NCBI GenBank assembly: GCA_964646425.1 | Contig: CAZYEI010000003.1 | Coordinates: 8,974 to 72,802, forward strand | Source: an uncultured Eubacteriales bacterium | Lineage (GTDB): Bacteria > Bacillota_I > Bacilli_A > RFN20 > JAISJY01 | Direction of reading: 5' to 3' | DNA: 63,829 nt | Shown here: positions 2,508-45,090 of the stretch, piece by piece | Numbering within the stretch: position 1 is the stretch's first letter | How the letters are laid out: each line of letters starts with the position of its first letter | Notes under the pieces: generated by a model | What the model was told of the DNA's origin: nothing | Database searches by the model: none | What the model saw: the letters and a program-made list of their open reading frames with translations, nothing else | Program-made: the position numbers and the translations under genes

Positions 2508-2733
2508 TATAATTCCTCCCTTTCATACGAGATTATGTACATTATACTACAATATTCGACAAAATTGTACATAATTTTATTTAATGTTAATTCTATAAGC
2601 AAAAGAATAGGCTTATAACTATTATTATGCAGAAATTTTAATTAAAACACATTTTCTTAATAAAATTTAGATATAGTAATAGTAAAATAAATTTGTTATA
2701 ATATTAAGCGTGTCTAAAGGAGGGGGAAACCAT

Positions 2734-5770: not shown

Positions 5771-5805
5771 ATAGAAGGAGTTATCACAAAATAACTCCTT
5801 CTATT
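5770..5805. terminator. Bidirectional terminator
   Basis: AATAGAAGGAGTTAT-CACAAA-ATAACTCCTTCTATT, 15-bp perfect stem between convergent genes. Confidence 0.8.
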
Positions 5806-6973
5806 TGTCTATTTCTTCTTTTTTAGGAATAATAACGCCATTTGTACCTGTAGTCCATAAATCTACAATAGTACCACAATGAATACAAGCTTCATATCTT
5901 CCATATAATCCGGTACATTCATGGAGATTTTGCTTTGATGCTCCACAATGACAATATTCTAGATGATATTCATCATTGTATTGTGCATATGAATGTGTAT
6001 ATTTGTGCTTATGAGTAGGCAATTCACAACCACAATGATATGTTAGGTTTCCGTTTGTGACTAATATATAGTTGTTGCTATGATTATGTTTTGAATTAAA
6101 TTCAATAGTTAAAGCAGAACAAAAATATGTATTTATGCTTGCCATACTTGACATATGAACTGTTGCTTGATAATTTCCAAAATGTAAATAGAGAATATCA
6201 CTTGTGGCATTATAGTCGTATATAATGCAAGTATGAGATATTGAGTCCATGATAATAGAGGCAAGTACTGGATTGCCCTTTTTTGCTTGTTCAACAATAT
6301 AGGACTTAATTGCATCCGAATATGTGATATCTCCATCGCCACCTTTCATAGTTATTTTATAGTCTGTTTGTTCTAGTCCACCATATGTTTGAAGATAGTG
6401 ATCTAAAAATATCGCTCTTTCAATTGCGCTCATAGTAGCAAATGAATTTTCATTATGTTTTAATTCATAGCCTAAATCATCTTCGGCAATTTTAAATAAA
6501 AAAGGTTGAAAATATGTATCTGTCATCTCCATTACTAAATTATAATATTCTGAATTAGATAAATTCATTGCTTCTTCATGAGTATAATGAGGAATTTTAT
6601 CGCTTCTAATTCCTGGTGAACTTGTCCTTTGATCGATAGCAACTGTAGAGGCTGGATTAACTTCATATTGATATGGGATTATATTATCATCCCAAAAAGT
6701 ATCATAATAAGAAAGAAACATTGCTATTGCTACATAATTACATGTACCTTTATAATTTTTAGCAAAATTTTCTGTTAAATTATAATAATAATATGTAGCA
6801 TCATTGTTGAGATAGCTACCTGTAGTAGAATTACTAGCTTTTTTCTTCTCGCTATTTGTGTTTTTTAAAGAGTGTTCTATATTTTTATAGTAATTTAAAG
6901 TGGATAGTGGATTGCTAAAATACAATTGACCTAAAAATACACTTATTAATGTAAGTAAAAATGGTTTATTCAT
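5801..6973 (-). CDS. Secreted papain-like cysteine peptidase (C39/C10-like) with His/Cys-rich C-terminal tail
   Basis: Signal-like N-terminus; NYKGTCNYVAIAMFLSYYD (nucleophile Cys), GNPVL, SHTCIIYDY (His), LHFG; tail with HCGC, CHCG, CIHCG. Confidence 0.65.
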   Translation of the reverse strand: MNKPFLLTLISVFLGQLYFSNPLSTLNYYKNIEHSLKNTNSEKKKASNSTTGSYLNNDATYYYYNLTENFAKNYKGTCNYVAIAMFLSYYDTFWDDNIIPYQYEVNPASTVAIDQRTSSPGIRSDKIPHYTHEEAMNLSNSEYYNLVMEMTDTYFQPFLFKIAEDDLGYELKHNENSFATMSAIERAIFLDHYLQTYGGLEQTDYKITMKGGDGDITYSDAIKSYIVEQAKKGNPVLASIIMDSISHTCIIYDYNATSDILYLHFGNYQATVHMSSMASINTYFCSALTIEFNSKHNHSNNYILVTNGNLTYHCGCELPTHKHKYTHSYAQYNDEYHLEYCHCGASKQNLHECTGLYGRYEACIHCGTIVDLWTTGTNGVIIPKKEEIDK

Positions 6974-6984
6974 AATACCTCCTT

Positions 6985-7040
6985 ATTTAATAAAATAAAT
7001 ATAATAAATTATTTAAATCTCGAGATTTAATAAAATAAAT
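6985..7040. repeat. 18-bp perfect palindrome with 16-bp direct repeats
   Basis: TTAAATCTCGAGATTTAA (7013-7030); ATTTAATAAAATAAAT at 6985-7000 and 7025-7040. Confidence 0.6.
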
Positions 7041-7312
7041 TTATAATATTAATATTCTAAGCATTATTTGTTAGAATTAGTGATGAAATCTATCTTTAAT
7101 TATTATTAGTTAAATTATTTATAAATTAATTGATAGTATTAAATACATGTTTAAATAGTGTGTGATATTTATGTACATGTAGGATTTATTTTCCTTTTTA
7201 TTATTCTAACGTTAAATATGTGAATAAAAATATTTAATAATTCAAAGTAAAAATAGGATTATTAATTAACACTAATAATAAAATAATGTGAATAAATATA
7301 AACTATATATAC

Positions 7313-7430
7313 AAAAAATTCGCATTTGAGAGTTATAAGTTAGCGTAATTAATAAAAGTTTTGTAACTAATTAGTTATTATCATTTATACTCCGGTTGAA
7401 TAAATGGAAGTTAAAGGGGGCTAACTTCAC
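7313..7430 (-). ncRNA. Candidate structured small RNA or long leader
   Basis: Three stem-loops (7407-7428 and 7382-7406 adjacent, then 7364-7377) immediately downstream of a TATAAT; first loop is GCCCCCUU; U6 tract at 7313-7318 is a weak 3' end. Confidence 0.45.
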
Positions 7431-7434
7431 TGCT

Positions 7435-7478
7435 ATTATATACTATCAATTTTGCGAATCGTGTCGAACCATGTCGAA
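7435..7478 (-). promoter_or_regulatory. Spo0A-box array overlapping a sigA promoter with 21-bp spacer
   Basis: + strand TTGCGAA(7452)/TGTCGAA(7462)/TGTCGAA(7472) at 10-bp period; - strand TCGACA-21 nt-TATAAT(7440-7435). Confidence 0.65.
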
Positions 7479-7541
7479 AGTGAAAAAATTTTTTTTAAAA
7501 AAATATTTTTTTTGTTTTTAAAACAGAATATGGGCGTATTT

Positions 7542-8930
<1,389 letters not shown>

Positions 8931-11734: not shown

Positions 11735-13522
11735 ATGTGTGGAATAATAGGATATGTTGGTAATCCTAAAAAAATAAAAGATACAATCATACAAGGATTA
11801 AAGATATTAGAATATCGAGGATATGATTCGGCTGGTGTTTGTTTTTTATTCGATAATAGCTTTAATATATATAAAAGTGTTGGCAAAATTAAAAATTTAG
11901 AAAATATAAACGATTTTGAGCAATTATCACCTCTTGCAATAGGTCATACAAGATGGGCAACTCATGGAGAAGTTAATGAATTAAATACGCACCCACACTT
12001 TTCAAATAATAAACGAATTTCACTGGTTCATAATGGAGTGATAAATAATTATTTAGATATCAAAAAAGATTTAGCAAAAAAGAACTATCGGTTTTATAGT
12101 GACACAGATAGTGAGATAATTGCTAATTTATTAGAAGATCTTTTAAAAGATAATGAAATGTTAGAATCTTTAAATATCTTAAAGACAAGATTGGATGGAA
12201 GTTATGCCTTAGTTATTATTGATAATAGCGCTAAGGATAAATTATATTTTATTAAACATTTAACGCCATTACTTATATGTAAATGTCAAGATGCTAATCT
12301 TTTGGTCAGTGACATAAATGCAGGATCTTATTTTTCAAATAAATTTATTTCCCTTGAAGATAATCAATATGGCTGTATTAGTAAAGATAAAGTGTCAATA
12401 TATCAAGATGGTAAAAAGATAATTCCGAAAGAATTTGAAAGTCAAATATCAAAAAATGATATATCGCTGGGAGGATTTCCACACTATATGATTAAAGAGA
12501 TATATGAGCAGCCATATATACTTCAAAGAATTTGTGAAAGATATATAAACGATAATAACGAATTAATTAATATTGATTGTAATATTTTAACGAAAATAGA
12601 AGAGGCTTCAAAAATTTATATAGTAGCATGTGGAACTTCATATCATGCAGGATTGATTGGGAAACAAGTATTTGAGAAAATACTTAAAAAAAGTGTAGAT
12701 GTATTAATTGCAAGTGAGTTTGACATTAATAATATGTTCATTAACGAAAATTCATTTTTCATTTTTATTTCCCAATCAGGAGAAACATATGATATAAAAA
12801 TGGCATTAAAACAAATAAAGGGAAGATATGGCAACCTGTTATTAACAAATGTAATTTCTAGTAGTTTAGGAAGAGAATGTGATAGTGCTATAGATATATT
12901 AGCAGGACCAGAAATTGCGGTTGCGTCAACTAAAGCATATAGTGCTCAAGTGGCAATTCTCTTACTTATTGCATATGGATTAACAAACAAAATTTTAGAA
13001 TACAAAAAAGAAATAATAGAAGTATGTTCGAGCATTCAAGAAACTTTAATTAGAACTCATCATATTTTGAATCTTGTAAAGGAAAATTTAGTAGATAAAG
13101 AACATTGTTTTTATCTTGGAAAATCAGTAGATTATTATATTGCTCAAGAAGCTAGTTTGAAACTTAAAGAAATATCGTATATTCATAGTGAGGCTTTTGC
13201 TGCTGGTGAATTAAAACATGGAACAATAGCATTAATTGAAAAAGATACTCCAGTTATTGGAATAATATCTCAAGAAAATGCTGCTAATAATTTGCGAAAC
13301 AATCTTGAAGAAGTTAACAGTAGAAAAGCAAGAGTAATCGTAATCACAACTTCATCACTTGCAAGAGATAATGATGATTTTGTGATAAAAGATGTTTCGC
13401 CTAATATGATTTCTTTGGCAATGATTCCGGTATTTCAATTAATAGCATATTATGCAGCATTACTTAGATATAAAGATATTGATAAGCCAAGAAATCTAGC
13501 TAAGTCAGTTACGGTGGAGTAA
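11735..13522 (+). CDS. glmS: Glutamine-fructose-6-phosphate aminotransferase
   Basis: MCGIIG, EYRGYDSAG, GHTRWATHG, SQSGET, VASTKAY, GELKHG, PRNLAKSVTVE. Confidence 0.97.
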   Translation: MCGIIGYVGNPKKIKDTIIQGLKILEYRGYDSAGVCFLFDNSFNIYKSVGKIKNLENINDFEQLSPLAIGHTRWATHGEVNELNTHPHFSNNKRISLVHNGVINNYLDIKKDLAKKNYRFYSDTDSEIIANLLEDLLKDNEMLESLNILKTRLDGSYALVIIDNSAKDKLYFIKHLTPLLICKCQDANLLVSDINAGSYFSNKFISLEDNQYGCISKDKVSIYQDGKKIIPKEFESQISKNDISLGGFPHYMIKEIYEQPYILQRICERYINDNNELINIDCNILTKIEEASKIYIVACGTSYHAGLIGKQVFEKILKKSVDVLIASEFDINNMFINENSFFIFISQSGETYDIKMALKQIKGRYGNLLLTNVISSSLGRECDSAIDILAGPEIAVASTKAYSAQVAILLLIAYGLTNKILEYKKEIIEVCSSIQETLIRTHHILNLVKENLVDKEHCFYLGKSVDYYIAQEASLKLKEISYIHSEAFAAGELKHGTIALIEKDTPVIGIISQENAANNLRNNLEEVNSRKARVIVITTSSLARDNDDFVIKDVSPNMISLAMIPVFQLIAYYAALLRYKDIDKPRNLAKSVTVE

Positions 13523-13784: not shown

Positions 13785-14534
13785 ATGATTGAAACAAAAG
13801 TTAAAGATTTGGATGTTGAATTCAATCAAAATATTGGCGGTGTAGCTGTTTCTGAAAAAATAATAGTAACTCCAGAAACTGAACGAGATTTAATAATTGT
13901 TGTAAAAGGTGGAAAAATATATGCTTTTTTCAAACGAATATTCGATGTTTTTTGTTCATTGCTAGCGATTATTGTTTTGTCACCGCTTCTTTTGTTGCTT
14001 TCATTATTAGTTAAAATTACAACTAAAGGCCCGGTGTTTTTTTTAGATAGAAGGGTAGGAAAAAATGGAAAAGAGATTAAAGTATACAAATATAGATCTA
14101 TGTATGTTGATGCTGAATCTCGTTTAAAAGAATATTTAACTGAAGAACAATATCAAACTTGGCTTACCGAGAGAAAAATAGATAATGATCCTCGAATTAC
14201 TAAATTAGGCAAAATTATTAGAAAAACATCATTGGATGAATTGCCTCAACTATTTAATATTTTAAAAGGCGATATGTCTATAGTTGGACCTAGACCAATT
14301 ACCAAACTTGAAATAGATTTAAATTTTAGTGAAGAAGAAAGAAAGATTTTATTATCTGCACATCCTGGCCTTACTGGATATTGGCAAGTTTATGGTAGAA
14401 GTGATGTTGATTATGCTTCGGGAAAAAGACAAAAATTAGAACTAGAATATTATAAACATAGAAGTATTTTGTTTGATATTAAATTAATTTTATTAACAAT
14501 CCCTGCAGTATTAAAAAGTAAGGGGGCTAAATAA
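13785..14534 (+). CDS. Initiating (priming) sugar-1-phosphate transferase, CpsE/WcaJ family
   Basis: FKRIFD, KYRSM, DPRITKLGKIIRKTSLDELPQLFNILKGDMSIVGPRP, PGLTGYWQV. Confidence 0.92.
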   Translation: MIETKVKDLDVEFNQNIGGVAVSEKIIVTPETERDLIIVVKGGKIYAFFKRIFDVFCSLLAIIVLSPLLLLLSLLVKITTKGPVFFLDRRVGKNGKEIKVYKYRSMYVDAESRLKEYLTEEQYQTWLTERKIDNDPRITKLGKIIRKTSLDELPQLFNILKGDMSIVGPRPITKLEIDLNFSEEERKILLSAHPGLTGYWQVYGRSDVDYASGKRQKLELEYYKHRSILFDIKLILLTIPAVLKSKGAK

Positions 14535-41095: not shown

Positions 41096-41202
41096 CAGAA
41101 AAAAACTGCTATTTTTTTATTAGTCTAATAATGTGACATATTTTTTACTTATTTTAGTATAGAGTAATCAAAGAAAGGCAAGCAATTAAATTTGTTGATT
41201 AA

Positions 41203-44981: not shown

Positions 44982-45090
44982 TATTACTACTCTTTTTATC
45001 TATAAAAAAGCAATATTTTATTAATATTTATTGTTTTGTTAATAATTAGTTTATTTAATTTTATTAAAATATTGAAATGGAGGGGGAAAA

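What the first reader, a model, noticed from the sequence alone, without database searches (positions are those of the whole stretch)
7313..7478. Candidate Spo0A-activated small RNA with an exposed anti-Shine-Dalgarno loop
Seen: TTGCGAA-tcg-TGTCGAA-cca-TGTCGAA (7452-7478), two perfect and one near 0A box at exact 10-bp helical phase. On the - strand the middle box supplies TCGACA exactly 21 nt before TATAAT (7440-7435). The predicted +1 (about 7428-7430) coincides with hairpin 1, GAAGUUA-GCCCCCUU-UAACUUC. Hairpin 2 (CAUUUAU/AUAAAUG) follows with no gap, then a 14-bp palindrome, with no real CDS for about 450 nt. Known: the 0A box is TGNCGAA; the Spo0A-activated sigA promoters spoIIE and spoIIG have 21-22 bp spacers with boxes over the -35; Firmicute sRNAs such as RsaE/RoxS, FsrA and RNAIII use C-rich loops to pair with SD sequences. 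Several SDs in this window are G-run type (prfA AGGAGGGGG, tilS GGAGGGGG). Inference: an undescribed sporulation-entry riboregulator, or a structured leader for the peptidase. Hairpin 2 also hides GGAG-N5-AUG of a 5-codon ORF (MIITN).
Basis: partly seen in the sequence, partly recalled or inferred. Interest (0 to 1): 0.75.

Follow-up and report, generated by a model that had tools for sequence, protein, structure and literature searches.

The report
Spo0A-type promoter with hairpin leader
The flagged stretch is a real, evolutionarily conserved promoter carrying phased binding boxes of the Spo0A type, followed by a two-hairpin 5' leader of a sigma-factor/secreted-peptidase operon (reduced to the peptidase gene here); it does not look like a free small RNA that blocks ribosome-binding sites.

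Summary
In eight distinct related lineages, the 62 nt upstream of hairpin 1 align without a single indel. Each has a TTCGACA box exactly 21 nt from a sigma-A -10 hexamer, plus a second box 10 bp upstream or downstream, and 6 nt between the -10 and the first hairpin. Two hairpins follow directly. Hairpin 1 keeps its pairing although its sequence and loop vary. Hairpin 2 has an almost invariant stem and an invariant CCGG in its loop.

The C-rich "anti-SD" loop occurs only in the window and its closest relative. No terminator follows the hairpins. In one relative (L021) the hairpins lie about 20 nt upstream of an ECF sigma-factor gene, which is followed by a membrane protein gene and the peptidase-like gene.

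The best reading is therefore a Spo0A-type activated promoter of the spoIIG/spoIIE kind, plus a 5'-terminal structured mRNA leader that probably stabilises the transcript. The window's lineage has lost the sigma and membrane-protein genes but kept the promoter and leader.

No Rfam family matches. Spo0A binding, the transcription start and the transcript's 3' end are untested. This is a new member of a known kind, of moderate to low interest.

The parts
7472..7478 (-). 0A-type box 1 (TTCGACA on the - strand, TGTCGAA on +), at -50..-44 relative to the predicted start. It lies 31 nt from the -10.
   Evidence: A box at this position is also present in L001, L005 (CTCGACA) and L003 (ATCGACT).
7462..7468 (-). 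0A-type box 2 (TTCGACA), at -40..-34. It contains the -35-like hexamer TCGACA exactly 21 nt from the -10.
   Evidence: A box at exactly this spacing is present in all 8 lineages: 6 perfect, L005 ATCGACA, L019 TTCTACA.
7452..7458 (-). Imperfect 0A-type box 3 (TTCGCAA on -, TTGCGAA on +), at -30..-24. It lies 11 nt from the -10, inside the spacer.
   Evidence: The same position holds a perfect TTCGACA in L015 and L019 and TTCGCAA in L001.
7435..7440 (-). Sigma-A type -10 hexamer TATAAT.
   Evidence: It is TATAAT in the window, L001, L020 and L021. In L003, L005, L015 and L019 it is TGN-GATAAT or TGN-AATAAT, an extended -10 that offsets the weaker hexamer.
7428..7428 (-). Predicted transcription start: the G of GAAG, 7 nt after the -10. 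This is inferred, not mapped.
   Evidence: Exactly 6 nt separate the -10 from GAAG/GATG in all 8 lineages.
7407..7428 (-). Hairpin 1 (GAAGUUAG / UUAACUUC, loop CCCCCU), a 5'-terminal stem-loop.
   Evidence: Searches give the fold. The outer stem GAAG(U/A)...(A/U)CUUC is conserved with one compensatory change. The upper stem and the loop differ completely between lineages yet stay paired. The C-run occurs only in the window and L001.
7382..7406 (-). Hairpin 2 (CAUUUAU / AUAAAUG) with loop UCAACCGGAGU. CCGG is invariant, and the GGAG is Shine-Dalgarno-like.
   Evidence: There is one compensatory pair (A-U in clade A, U-A in clade B). CCGG is present in 8 of 8 lineages and CCGGA(G/A)U in 6 of 8.
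7364..7377 (-). 14-bp palindrome TAACTAATTAGTTA, an optional weak third hairpin. The stop codon of the 5-codon ORF lies inside it.
   Evidence: CTAATTAG recurs in L001, L005 and L019, and a different palindrome (TTGCTAGTTAGCAA) sits there in L015. It is absent from L003, L020 and L021.
6974..7363 (-). Long AT-rich stretch between the leader and the gene, presumed to be 5' UTR. It occupies the position held in relatives by the sigma and/or membrane-protein genes.
   Evidence: It is poorly conserved and full of indels against L001, in contrast to the promoter and leader. It holds no protein remnant of the lost genes and no terminator.
5801..6973 (-). Downstream gene: a 390-aa secreted protein with a putative papain-like (C10/C39-like) cysteine peptidase domain and a Cys/His-rich C-terminus.
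   Evidence: Searches give NF045837 hits below the cutoff. One search gives weak Peptidase_C39_2 and C10 hits. The best fold matches are weak and go to IdeS, SpeB and C39 domains (from a low-confidence model).

Best explanation
This is the control region of an operon, not a free riboregulator.

**Promoter.** A sigma-A promoter (TATAAT at 7440..7435) has its -35-like hexamer 21 nt away, which is too far for unaided use. That hexamer lies inside a head-to-tail array of 0A-type boxes (7-mers separated by 3 bp, so in 10-bp phase). The most likely binder is phosphorylated Spo0A. Bound at about -34 to -50, and here also at -24 to -30, it would activate transcription by contacting RNA polymerase, as at spoIIG and spoIIE in Bacillus subtilis. 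The unit would then switch on at the entry to stationary phase or sporulation.

**Leader.** The transcript starts at the G of GAAG (about 7428), so its 5' end is immediately locked into hairpin 1, with hairpin 2 stacked directly behind it. This 47-nt module is the 5' leader of an operon. In relative L021 the operon encodes an ECF sigma factor, a single-pass membrane protein (anti-sigma-like) and a secreted cysteine-peptidase-like protein. One clade has lost the sigma gene. The window's lineage has lost both the sigma and the membrane-protein genes, leaving about 410 nt of UTR before the peptidase-like gene.

**Function of the leader.** The most likely role is protection of the 5' end, that is mRNA stabilisation by a 5'-terminal stem-loop together with an exposed SD-like GGAG in the loop of hairpin 2. 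The invariant CCGG loop suggests an additional sequence-specific partner.

**Shown versus inferred.** Shown: the sequence anatomy, its conservation and the gene contexts. Inferred: Spo0A as the binder, activation rather than repression, the start site, and the stabilising role.
For: **Promoter geometry**
- In 8 distinct lineages the neighbouring proteins are only 36-78% identical. Even so, the 62 nt before hairpin 1 align with no indel.
- A TTCGACA box lies 21 nt from the -10 in all 8 lineages. A second box lies at 31 or 11 nt.
- The -10 co-varies: TATAAT without TG in one clade, TGN-GATAAT or TGN-AATAAT in the other.
- Exactly 6 nt separate the -10 from the hairpin.
- Against L001, the promoter and leader are about 90% identical, while the rest of the spacer is riddled with indels.

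**Spo0A plausibility**
- The 7-mer TGTCGAA is the Spo0A core site in Bacillus and Clostridioides, and the presence of a perfect site has predictive value for binding (PMC3485338).
- Two boxes separated by 3 bp form a footprinted Spo0A site (PMC2731898).
- The genome is that of an endospore former: spoIVA, spoIIE, spoVT and yabQ are in the window, and spoIVA and spoVIF are in relative L022.

**Hairpins**
- 7 of 8 elements fold on their own into the same two hairpins.
- Compensatory changes occur in both stems, and the upper stem of hairpin 1 is completely rebuilt between lineages.

**Leader rather than sRNA**
- In L021 and L020 the element is followed within about 20 nt by the ECF sigma gene (TIGR02937, 50.7 bits against a 42.9 cutoff), then the membrane protein, then the peptidase-like gene.
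- No terminator follows the element.

**Stabiliser idea**
- GGAG or GGAA is in the hairpin 2 loop in exactly the 6 lineages where no gene follows closely. It is missing (GGU) in L020 and L021, where the sigma gene's own GGAG lies 3 nt after hairpin 2.
Against: - There are no transcript data, so the start site, the 3' end and the timing of expression are all predictions.
- spo0A itself is not in the window, and the organism could not be identified. Nothing tests binding.
- The spoIIG/spoIIE architecture (21-22 bp spacer, boxes over the -35) is recalled from memory. I could not retrieve the primary papers, and I did not compare box orientation with those promoters.
- The extended -10 in one clade could make the promoter independent of an activator, in which case the boxes could mediate repression.
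- Folding energy is the same on both strands (sum -92.8 against -92.6 kcal/mol), so only the promoter assigns the strand.
- Covariation rests on 8 sequences, and the two clearest compensatory pairs each split along one clade boundary. L019 breaks one pair of hairpin 1.
- In the window about 410 poorly conserved nt separate the leader from the gene, so the gene may have its own promoter.
Confidence: 0.5

Rival explanations
1. One reading: an independent, Spo0A-activated small RNA. Its C-rich hairpin 1 loop would pair with G-rich Shine-Dalgarno sequences (prfA, tilS and others) and block their translation.
For: - The window's lineage has lost the genes that follow the leader in relatives, so the transcript could have been put to a new use.
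- The C-run is kept, and even lengthened, in L001.
- Three genes in the window have G5-run SDs. The SD of the ORF at 14534 (AAGGGGGC) is a perfect 8-nt complement of the loop GCCCCCUU, with a duplex energy of -16.4 kcal/mol.
Against: - The C-rich loop is absent from 6 of 8 lineages, whereas hairpin 2, which is not C-rich, is the conserved part.
- There is only one C-run, unlike RsaE/RoxS-type RNAs.
- There is no intrinsic terminator or conserved 3' end.
- There is no Rfam match.
- In L020 and L021 the element is plainly an mRNA leader.
- The window and L001 are close relatives (about 90% identity in this stretch), so the shared loop carries little weight.
- C5-G5 complementarity is trivial to find once G-run SDs exist.
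Confidence: 0.08
2. The promoter and leader are real, but the boxes do not act by Spo0A activation. Either a different response regulator binds the direct repeats, or Spo0A binds and represses a promoter that is otherwise constitutive.
For: - Boxes that overlap a core promoter repress it in phages phi29 and Nf (PMC2731898).
- Clade B has an extended -10 (TGN), which usually makes a -35 dispensable.
- Box 3 lies inside the spacer at -24..-30.
- Direct repeats in 10-11 bp phase are typical of many winged-helix response regulators (general knowledge).
- No Spo0A data exist for this organism.
Against: - The 7-mer is a perfect match to the Spo0A core site, repeated with the canonical 3-bp gap.
- The single-nucleotide rigidity of the box-to-(-10) distance in all lineages points to a direct contact with RNA polymerase, which is what activators need and what a mere steric repressor does not.
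- The -35-like hexamer at 21 nt cannot be used unaided.
Confidence: 0.2
3. The inverted repeats act in DNA, not RNA. Hairpin 2 (TTTAT-N3-4-CCGG-N3-ATAAA) would be a palindromic operator at about +25 to +47 for a dimeric repressor that blocks transcription.
For: - The sequence of hairpin 2, not only its pairing, is nearly invariant, and its centre is the palindrome CCGG.
- Folding energies do not favour either strand.
- In clade B the site is an almost perfect 22-bp palindrome.
Against: - Hairpin 1's outer half-sites are separated by 12 to 17 nt in different lineages, and its inner sequence is replaced while pairing is kept. That fits a nucleic-acid stem, not a protein site.
- Clade A has one extra base on one side of CCGG, which breaks the DNA symmetry of hairpin 2.
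- G-U pairs in L020 and L021 work only in the sense RNA.
Confidence: 0.1
4. Hairpin 2 controls translation of a 5-codon upstream ORF, whose ATG lies in its 3' arm. This mini-ORF would couple to or gate expression of the downstream gene. In L020 and L021 its stop codon is 5 nt before the sigma gene's ATG.
For: All four clade A lineages have a 5-codon ORF starting at the same ATG: MIITN, MKKTN, MIGDY and MIGDY. In the window a GGAG lies 5 nt upstream of that ATG.
Against: - The ATG is absent from all four clade B lineages, which read ATAAAAG.
- The peptide sequence is not conserved.
- L020 and L021 have no SD in front of the ATG.
- Short ORFs ending after a few codons are expected in DNA with 27% G+C.
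Confidence: 0.05

Closest known systems
Spo0A-activated sigma-A promoters of Bacillus subtilis spoIIG and spoIIE
   Same: - A sigma-A type -10.
- A -35-like hexamer at an over-long 21-nt spacing.
- Spo0A core sites (TGTCGAA) overlapping and upstream of that hexamer, in 10-bp phase.
- A host that forms endospores.

Sources: plus my own recollection of the spoIIG/spoIIE literature.
   Different: - The gene controlled is not a core sporulation gene. It is an ECF sigma / membrane protein / secreted peptidase-like operon, reduced to the peptidase-like gene here.
- The boxes are perfect consensus, whereas the Bacillus prototypes have weak boxes.
- A third box lies inside the spacer.
- Binding, activation and box orientation relative to the prototypes are untested.
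5' stabiliser leaders of Gram-positive mRNAs (aprE leader 5' stem-loop; ermC; cryIIIA STAB-SD)
   Same: - A stem-loop that begins at the predicted first nucleotide.
- An exposed SD-like GGAG far from any start codon, in lineages with a long UTR.
- aprE is likewise a secreted protease expressed after exponential growth.

Sources: PMC3997798.
   Different: - There is no sequence similarity to those leaders.
- The stabilising effect has not been measured.
- The invariance of the hairpin 2 stem and its CCGG loop is more than simple end protection requires.
C-rich-loop regulatory RNAs of Firmicutes (RsaE/RoxS, FsrA, RNAIII)
   Same: One unpaired C-run (CCCCC) in a hairpin loop, complementary to G-rich SDs in the same window.
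   Different: - No Rfam match.
- A single C-run instead of several.
- No terminator.
- The C-run is not conserved beyond the nearest relative.
- The element is an mRNA leader in relatives.
ECF sigma / anti-sigma operons
   Same: In L021 a 185-aa ECF sigma gene overlaps the start of a gene for a single-pass membrane protein with a short cytoplasmic N-terminus. An exported protein gene follows.
   Different: - The promoter is sigma-A-like (TATAAT), not an ECF-type autoregulated promoter.
- The membrane protein matches no anti-sigma family.
- The window itself has neither the sigma gene nor the membrane-protein gene.

Membership tests
Spo0A-dependent sigma-A promoter (spoIIG/spoIIE class) | One or more 0A boxes matching TGNCGAA (core TGTCGAA) | tested here: met
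   The window has two perfect boxes and one imperfect box. A box is conserved in all 8 lineages. The consensus comes from PMC3485338 and PMC2731898.
Spo0A-dependent sigma-A promoter (spoIIG/spoIIE class) | Sigma-A -10 with a -35-like element at a 21-22 bp spacing that a box overlaps | tested here: met
   TCGACA-21 nt-TATAAT occurs once in the window against 0 in shuffles. The 21-nt spacing is invariant in 8 lineages. The definition of this feature itself rests on my memory of the literature.
Spo0A-dependent sigma-A promoter (spoIIG/spoIIE class) | The genome encodes Spo0A | not testable with these tools
   spo0A is not in the 64-kb window. Sporulation genes spoIVA, spoIIE, spoVT and yabQ are present. 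The genome is absent from the searchable genome collection.
Spo0A-dependent sigma-A promoter (spoIIG/spoIIE class) | Spo0A~P binds and stimulates transcription; expression is lost in a spo0A mutant | not testable with these tools
   This needs EMSA or footprinting, in vitro transcription and genetics.
Trans-acting C-rich sRNA (RsaE/RoxS type) | Match to the family covariance model | tested here: not met
   There were no Rfam hits at gathering score or at E <= 10 in 6900-7600. Relatives gave none either (noise only).
Trans-acting C-rich sRNA (RsaE/RoxS type) | Conserved unpaired C-rich motifs (several per RNA) | tested here: not met
   There is a single C-run, present in 2 of 8 lineages only.
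Trans-acting C-rich sRNA (RsaE/RoxS type) | A discrete transcript ended by an intrinsic terminator | tested here: not met
   The standard scan found no terminator. A relaxed scan found no conserved hairpin followed by a U-tract. In L020 and L021 a coding gene follows after about 20 nt.
5'-terminal stabilising leader (aprE/ermC/STAB-SD type) | A stem-loop at or within a few nt of the 5' end, and/or an SD-like sequence without a start codon | tested here: inconclusive
   Hairpin 1 begins 6 nt after the -10 in all lineages, and GGAG or GGAA is in the hairpin 2 loop in 6 of 8. The 5' end is predicted, not mapped.
5'-terminal stabilising leader (aprE/ermC/STAB-SD type) | The leader lengthens mRNA half-life | not testable with these tools
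   This needs rifampicin chase experiments with and without hairpin 1 and the loop GGAG.
ECF sigma / anti-sigma operon (in relatives) | A sigma-70 family ECF-type sigma factor | tested here: met
   L021:3534-4091 scores 50.7 bits on TIGR02937 (cutoff 42.9) and matches Pfam Sigma70_r2 at 6e-9. The gene is absent from the window.
ECF sigma / anti-sigma operon (in relatives) | An adjacent anti-sigma factor with a recognisable anti-sigma domain | tested here: not met
   The 351-363 aa membrane protein matches no Pfam, NCBIfam or PDB family. Only its position, its overlapping start and its topology suggest the role.

The most novel reading that the evidence does not exclude
The two-hairpin module with its invariant CCGG/GGAG loop is a previously undescribed RNA element restricted to an uncultured group of low-G+C spore formers, with a specific protein or ribosome partner. 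In the window's lineage, which lost the sigma and membrane-protein genes downstream, the Spo0A-driven transcript has been re-used as a riboregulator. Its newly acquired C-rich loop would pair with G-run Shine-Dalgarno sequences, including a perfect 8-nt match at the ORF starting at 14534.
Probability: 0.07. Interest if true: 0.6.

Novelty: new member of a known kind. Interest (0 to 1): 0.3.

Why it matters
If Spo0A does bind here, this is a clear case of the master sporulation regulator directly driving an ECF sigma / secreted-peptidase module outside the core sporulation programme, in an uncultured lineage. It would use the unusual long-spacer activation geometry known from spoIIG and spoIIE.

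The locus also shows a promoter and leader kept intact while the genes behind them were lost step by step. That is useful for thinking about how regulatory modules are re-used.

The small hairpin 2 motif, with its invariant loop, is a candidate new cis-regulatory RNA. None of this overturns current understanding, and the more exciting sRNA reading is unlikely.

Tried and rejected
**Searches that found nothing useful**
- Rfam at gathering score and at permissive thresholds, on the window and on relatives, gave nothing or noise.
- Exact-pattern scans for the hairpin 2 core in the GTDB representative genomes and in JGI metagenomes gave only chance hits, in coding DNA of unrelated phyla. One look-alike after a terminator in Solibacillus lacks hairpin 1 and breaks the stem. 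The motif is therefore restricted to this lineage, and the window's own genome is not in that collection.
- Extra copies were sought in the window and the held loci, and none were found.
- tblastn for remnants of the lost membrane-protein and sigma genes in the spacer found none.

**Organism identification**
- GDH homologues only gave Gastranaerophilales names at about 65% identity, which is uninformative.
- Cluster look-ups returned no names.

**Alignment and folding**
- MAFFT misaligns the variable hairpin 1 and the hairpin 2 loop. I therefore used a hand-anchored, feature-based alignment and did not build a covariance model.
- Sense and antisense folding energies show no strand preference.

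**The downstream protein**
- The AlphaFold2 model of the 390-aa protein has low confidence (pLDDT 51.5).
- Fold matches to cysteine peptidases are weak, with E >= 0.03.
- Profile searches against PDB found nothing.

**Other checks**
- I could not retrieve the spoIIG/spoIIE promoter papers or any paper on Spo0A-box-driven sRNAs.
- CCGG is not avoided in the window, so the invariant loop is not explained by restriction-site avoidance.
- The window's spoIIE upstream region has no consensus box, so it could not serve as an internal positive control.
Full report
**1. What is in the sequence**

- The + strand carries TTGCGAA (7452-7458), tcg, TGTCGAA (7462-7468), cca, TGTCGAA (7472-7478). That is three 7-mers separated by 3 bp.
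- On the - strand these read TTCGACA, TTCGACA, TTCGCAA. They are followed by TATAAT at 7440..7435.
- The hexamer TCGACA (7467..7462) lies exactly 21 nt before the -10.
- Six nt after the -10, the - strand reads GAAGUUAGCCCCCUUUAACUUC (hairpin 1, 7428..7407).
- Directly after that comes CAUUUAUUCAACCGGAGUAUAAAUG (hairpin 2, 7406..7382).
- Then comes the 14-bp palindrome TAACTAATTAGTTA (7377..7364).

The 47-nt element folds as two abutting hairpins (-8.0 kcal/mol, z = -2.4). A longer 133-nt stretch is not unusually stable (z = -1.15).

TGNCGAA alone is not enriched in the window: 16 matches against 11 expected. The combination is what stands out. TCGACA-N20-22-TATAAT occurs once against 0 in 100 shuffles. 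An exact tandem of boxes is found nowhere else in the window or in 21 kb of a relative.

**2. Context**

- Upstream on the - strand are glmM, glmU and a glutamate dehydrogenase gene that ends at 7542.
- Downstream, starting at 6973, is a 390-aa secreted protein.
- The window comes from an endospore former. It encodes SpoIVA (370-1926), SpoIIE, SpoVT and YabQ. Its G+C content is about 27%.
- The 390-aa protein has only weak similarity to cysteine peptidases. These are NF045837 below its cutoff, Peptidase_C39_2 and C10, an invariant Cys and His, and weak fold matches to IdeS, SpeB and C39 domains from a low-confidence model. "Putative papain-like peptidase" is as far as the evidence goes.

**3. 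Relatives**

The protein family is rare, with 7 clusters among 5.8 billion sequences. Contigs encoding its homologues, the GDH homologues and the neighbouring membrane protein gave eight distinct versions of the locus. All lie downstream of gdh where that side of the contig is present.

Stacking the 62 nt before hairpin 1 without any gaps shows the following:
- A TTCGACA box lies exactly 21 nt from the -10 in all eight. Six are perfect, L005 has ATCGACA and L019 has TTCTACA.
- A second box lies 31 nt from the -10 in the window, L001 and L005, with a weaker one in L003. Alternatively it lies 11 nt away: perfect in L015 and L019, and TTCGCAA in the window and L001.
- The -10 is TATAAT without TG in one clade (window, L001, L020, L021). 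In the other clade (L003, L005, L015, L019) it is TGN-GATAAT or TGN-AATAAT.
- Exactly 6 nt separate the -10 from GAAG everywhere.

The neighbouring proteins of these lineages are only 36-78% identical. Between the window and L001, the promoter and leader are about 90% identical while the remainder of the spacer is full of indels. This is strong evidence for a functional promoter with rigid geometry. A weaker hexamer paired with an extended -10 is what a real sigma-A -10 predicts.

**4. The hairpins**

- Seven of eight elements fold on their own into the same two hairpins (z from -1.7 to -6.7). L019 has one U-U mismatch.
- The outer stem of hairpin 1, GAAG(U/A)...(A/U)CUUC, carries one compensatory change.
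- The upper stem and loop of hairpin 1 are completely different in sequence and length between lineages, yet remain paired: UAGAA/UUCUA, U(A/G)AAC/GUUUG, AGG/CCU and GGG/CCC.
- Hairpin 2 has one compensatory pair (A-U against U-A), an otherwise invariant stem, and CCGG invariant in the loop.
- The distance between hairpin 1's outer half-sites varies from 12 to 17 nt. That argues for a nucleic-acid stem rather than a protein-binding palindrome.
- Folding energy does not distinguish the two strands. The sense assignment therefore rests on the promoter.
- The C-rich loop on which the sRNA idea depends is present only in the window (CCCCCU) and L001 (ACCCCCC). The other loops are ACUC, AAAA, GGAAA or A-rich.

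**5. What follows the element**

- In L021, and in the truncated L020, hairpin 2 is followed after 3 nt by GGAG and then by a 185-aa ECF sigma factor gene (TIGR02937 above its cutoff).
- That gene's end overlaps the start of a 351-aa single-pass membrane protein gene. The peptidase-like gene follows.
- In L003, L005, L015 and L019 the sigma gene is absent. About 200-250 nt, including a second canonical promoter (TTGCAA-17-TATAAT), precede the membrane protein gene.
- In the window and L001 both genes are absent. No protein-level remnants are detectable. About 410 and 610 nt respectively separate the leader from the peptidase-like gene.
- No terminator follows the hairpins in any lineage.

The element is therefore an mRNA leader in at least one lineage, and nothing marks it as a separate RNA in the others. 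A distant homologue of the peptidase-like gene in another genomic context (L011) lacks the element.

**6. Mechanism proposed**

The 7-mer is the Spo0A core site. Its G2, C4 and G5 positions matter for binding by both the Bacillus and the Clostridioides protein, and perfect sites have predictive value for binding (PMC3485338). Two boxes separated by 3 bp form a footprinted Spo0A site (PMC2731898).

From my own knowledge of the spoIIG and spoIIE literature (Satola, Baldus, Bird, York, Moran, Spiegelman and colleagues), which I could not retrieve here, those sigma-A promoters have 22- and 21-bp spacers. They carry 0A boxes over the -35-like element and depend on Spo0A~P.

The single-nucleotide rigidity of the box-to-(-10) distance suggests a direct contact with RNA polymerase, and hence activation. 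The transcript would begin at about 7428, so its 5' end is buried in hairpin 1.

[quoted passage not shown] GGAG or GGAA lies in the hairpin 2 loop in exactly the six lineages with a long UTR. It is replaced by GGU in L020 and L021, where the sigma gene's own GGAG lies just after hairpin 2. I therefore propose a stabilising leader. The invariant CCGG hints at a further specific partner.

All of these steps are inferences. Only the anatomy, the conservation and the gene contexts are shown.

**7. Rivals**

- **The anti-SD sRNA.** It cannot be excluded for the window and L001. G5-run SDs exist at prfA, tilS and the ORF at 14534, and the last of these is a perfect 8-nt complement of the loop. Against it stand the lack of loop conservation, the absence of a terminator, the single C-run and the Rfam negatives. 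I give it about 8%.
- **Repression, or another regulator.** This is possible because of the extended -10 in one clade and the box inside the spacer. About 20%.
- **A DNA operator reading of hairpin 2.** About 10%.
- **A mini-ORF mechanism.** About 5%. The ATG is missing from half of the lineages.

**8. Comparison and novelty**

- The promoter works like, and on the sequence criteria I could test qualifies as, a spoIIG/spoIIE-class Spo0A promoter. Binding and the presence of spo0A are untested.
- The RNA is not a member of any Rfam family. It fails the tested criteria for RsaE/RoxS-type sRNAs.
- The hairpin 2 motif was not found in GTDB representative genomes or JGI metagenomes, so it is confined to this uncultured lineage.
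- Overall this is a new member of known kinds, namely a Spo0A-type promoter and a structured 5' leader. It comes with a tidy story of stepwise gene loss behind a retained control region.

Interest: 0.3.

Noticed in passing
L021:3534-4091 (also L020:5483-5701, cut by the contig end): In one related lineage an ECF-type sigma factor gene lies directly behind the leader. Its end overlaps the start of the membrane-protein gene. The window and most other relatives lack this gene at the locus, and tblastn finds no remnant of it.
   Followed up: yes
L003:4740-4909, L005:290-434, L015:2860-3000, L019:2860-3000: Lineages that keep the membrane-protein gene but lack the sigma gene share a second conserved block. 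It contains CTAC(N)ATAATAA followed by a canonical sigma-A promoter (TTGCAA/TTGCAT-17-TATAAT), upstream of the membrane-protein gene's start codon. These operons therefore probably have two promoters.
   Followed up: partly
window 7013-7030: An 18-bp perfect palindrome, TTAAATCTCGAGATTTAA, lies about 40-57 nt upstream of the start of the peptidase-like gene. L001 has TAAGTCCCGGGATTTA at the same place. The centre changed from TCGA to CCGG while staying palindromic, which suggests a symmetric protein-binding site or a hairpin just before the ribosome-binding site.
   Followed up: no
window 7155-7195 (ORF on + strand 7158-7223): An island conserved with L001 (AAATAAATCCTACATGTACATAAATATCACACAC on the - strand) lies inside the otherwise diverged spacer. 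On the opposite strand it overlaps a 21-aa hydrophobic ORF (MCDIYVHVGFIFLFIILTLNM). L001 has a similar ORF, but an indel shifts its start frame. It may simply reflect T-rich sequence.
   Followed up: partly
window 14520-14527; also 2718-2726 (prfA) and 45079-45086 (tilS): Three genes have G5-run Shine-Dalgarno sequences. The one before the ORF at 14534, a gene of unknown function in a polysaccharide cluster, reads AAGGGGGC. That is the exact complement of the 8-nt hairpin 1 loop.
   Followed up: partly
window 41133-41163: Upstream of spoIIE, GTGACA is followed after 19 nt by TATAGA. This is an over-long spacer without a consensus 0A box, reminiscent of the weak-box early sporulation promoters described in other species.
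   Followed up: no
window 1-63829; glmS at 11735-13522: No Rfam family reaches its gathering score anywhere in the 64 kb, so there is no tRNA and no riboswitch. In particular no glmS ribozyme precedes glmS, where the upstream spacer is only 119 nt. Relatives have spacers of 400-970 nt there, also without a hit.
   Followed up: partly
window 7479-7541: Between the gdh stop codon and the boxes lies a pure A/T palindromic tract (AAAAAAAATATTTTTTTAAAAAAAATTTTTT), conserved with L001. More distant relatives have an ordinary hairpin terminator after gdh at this place, G+C-rich in L003 and L019 and A/T-rich in L015. The tract may serve as a weak terminator, as an UP-like element, or both.
   Followed up: no
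window 2555-2561: A single perfect box (TTCGACA on the + strand) lies in the spacer between a 167-aa gene of unknown function and prfA. It lies about 140 nt upstream of the TATAAT before prfA and is not arranged like the promoter studied here.
   Followed up: no
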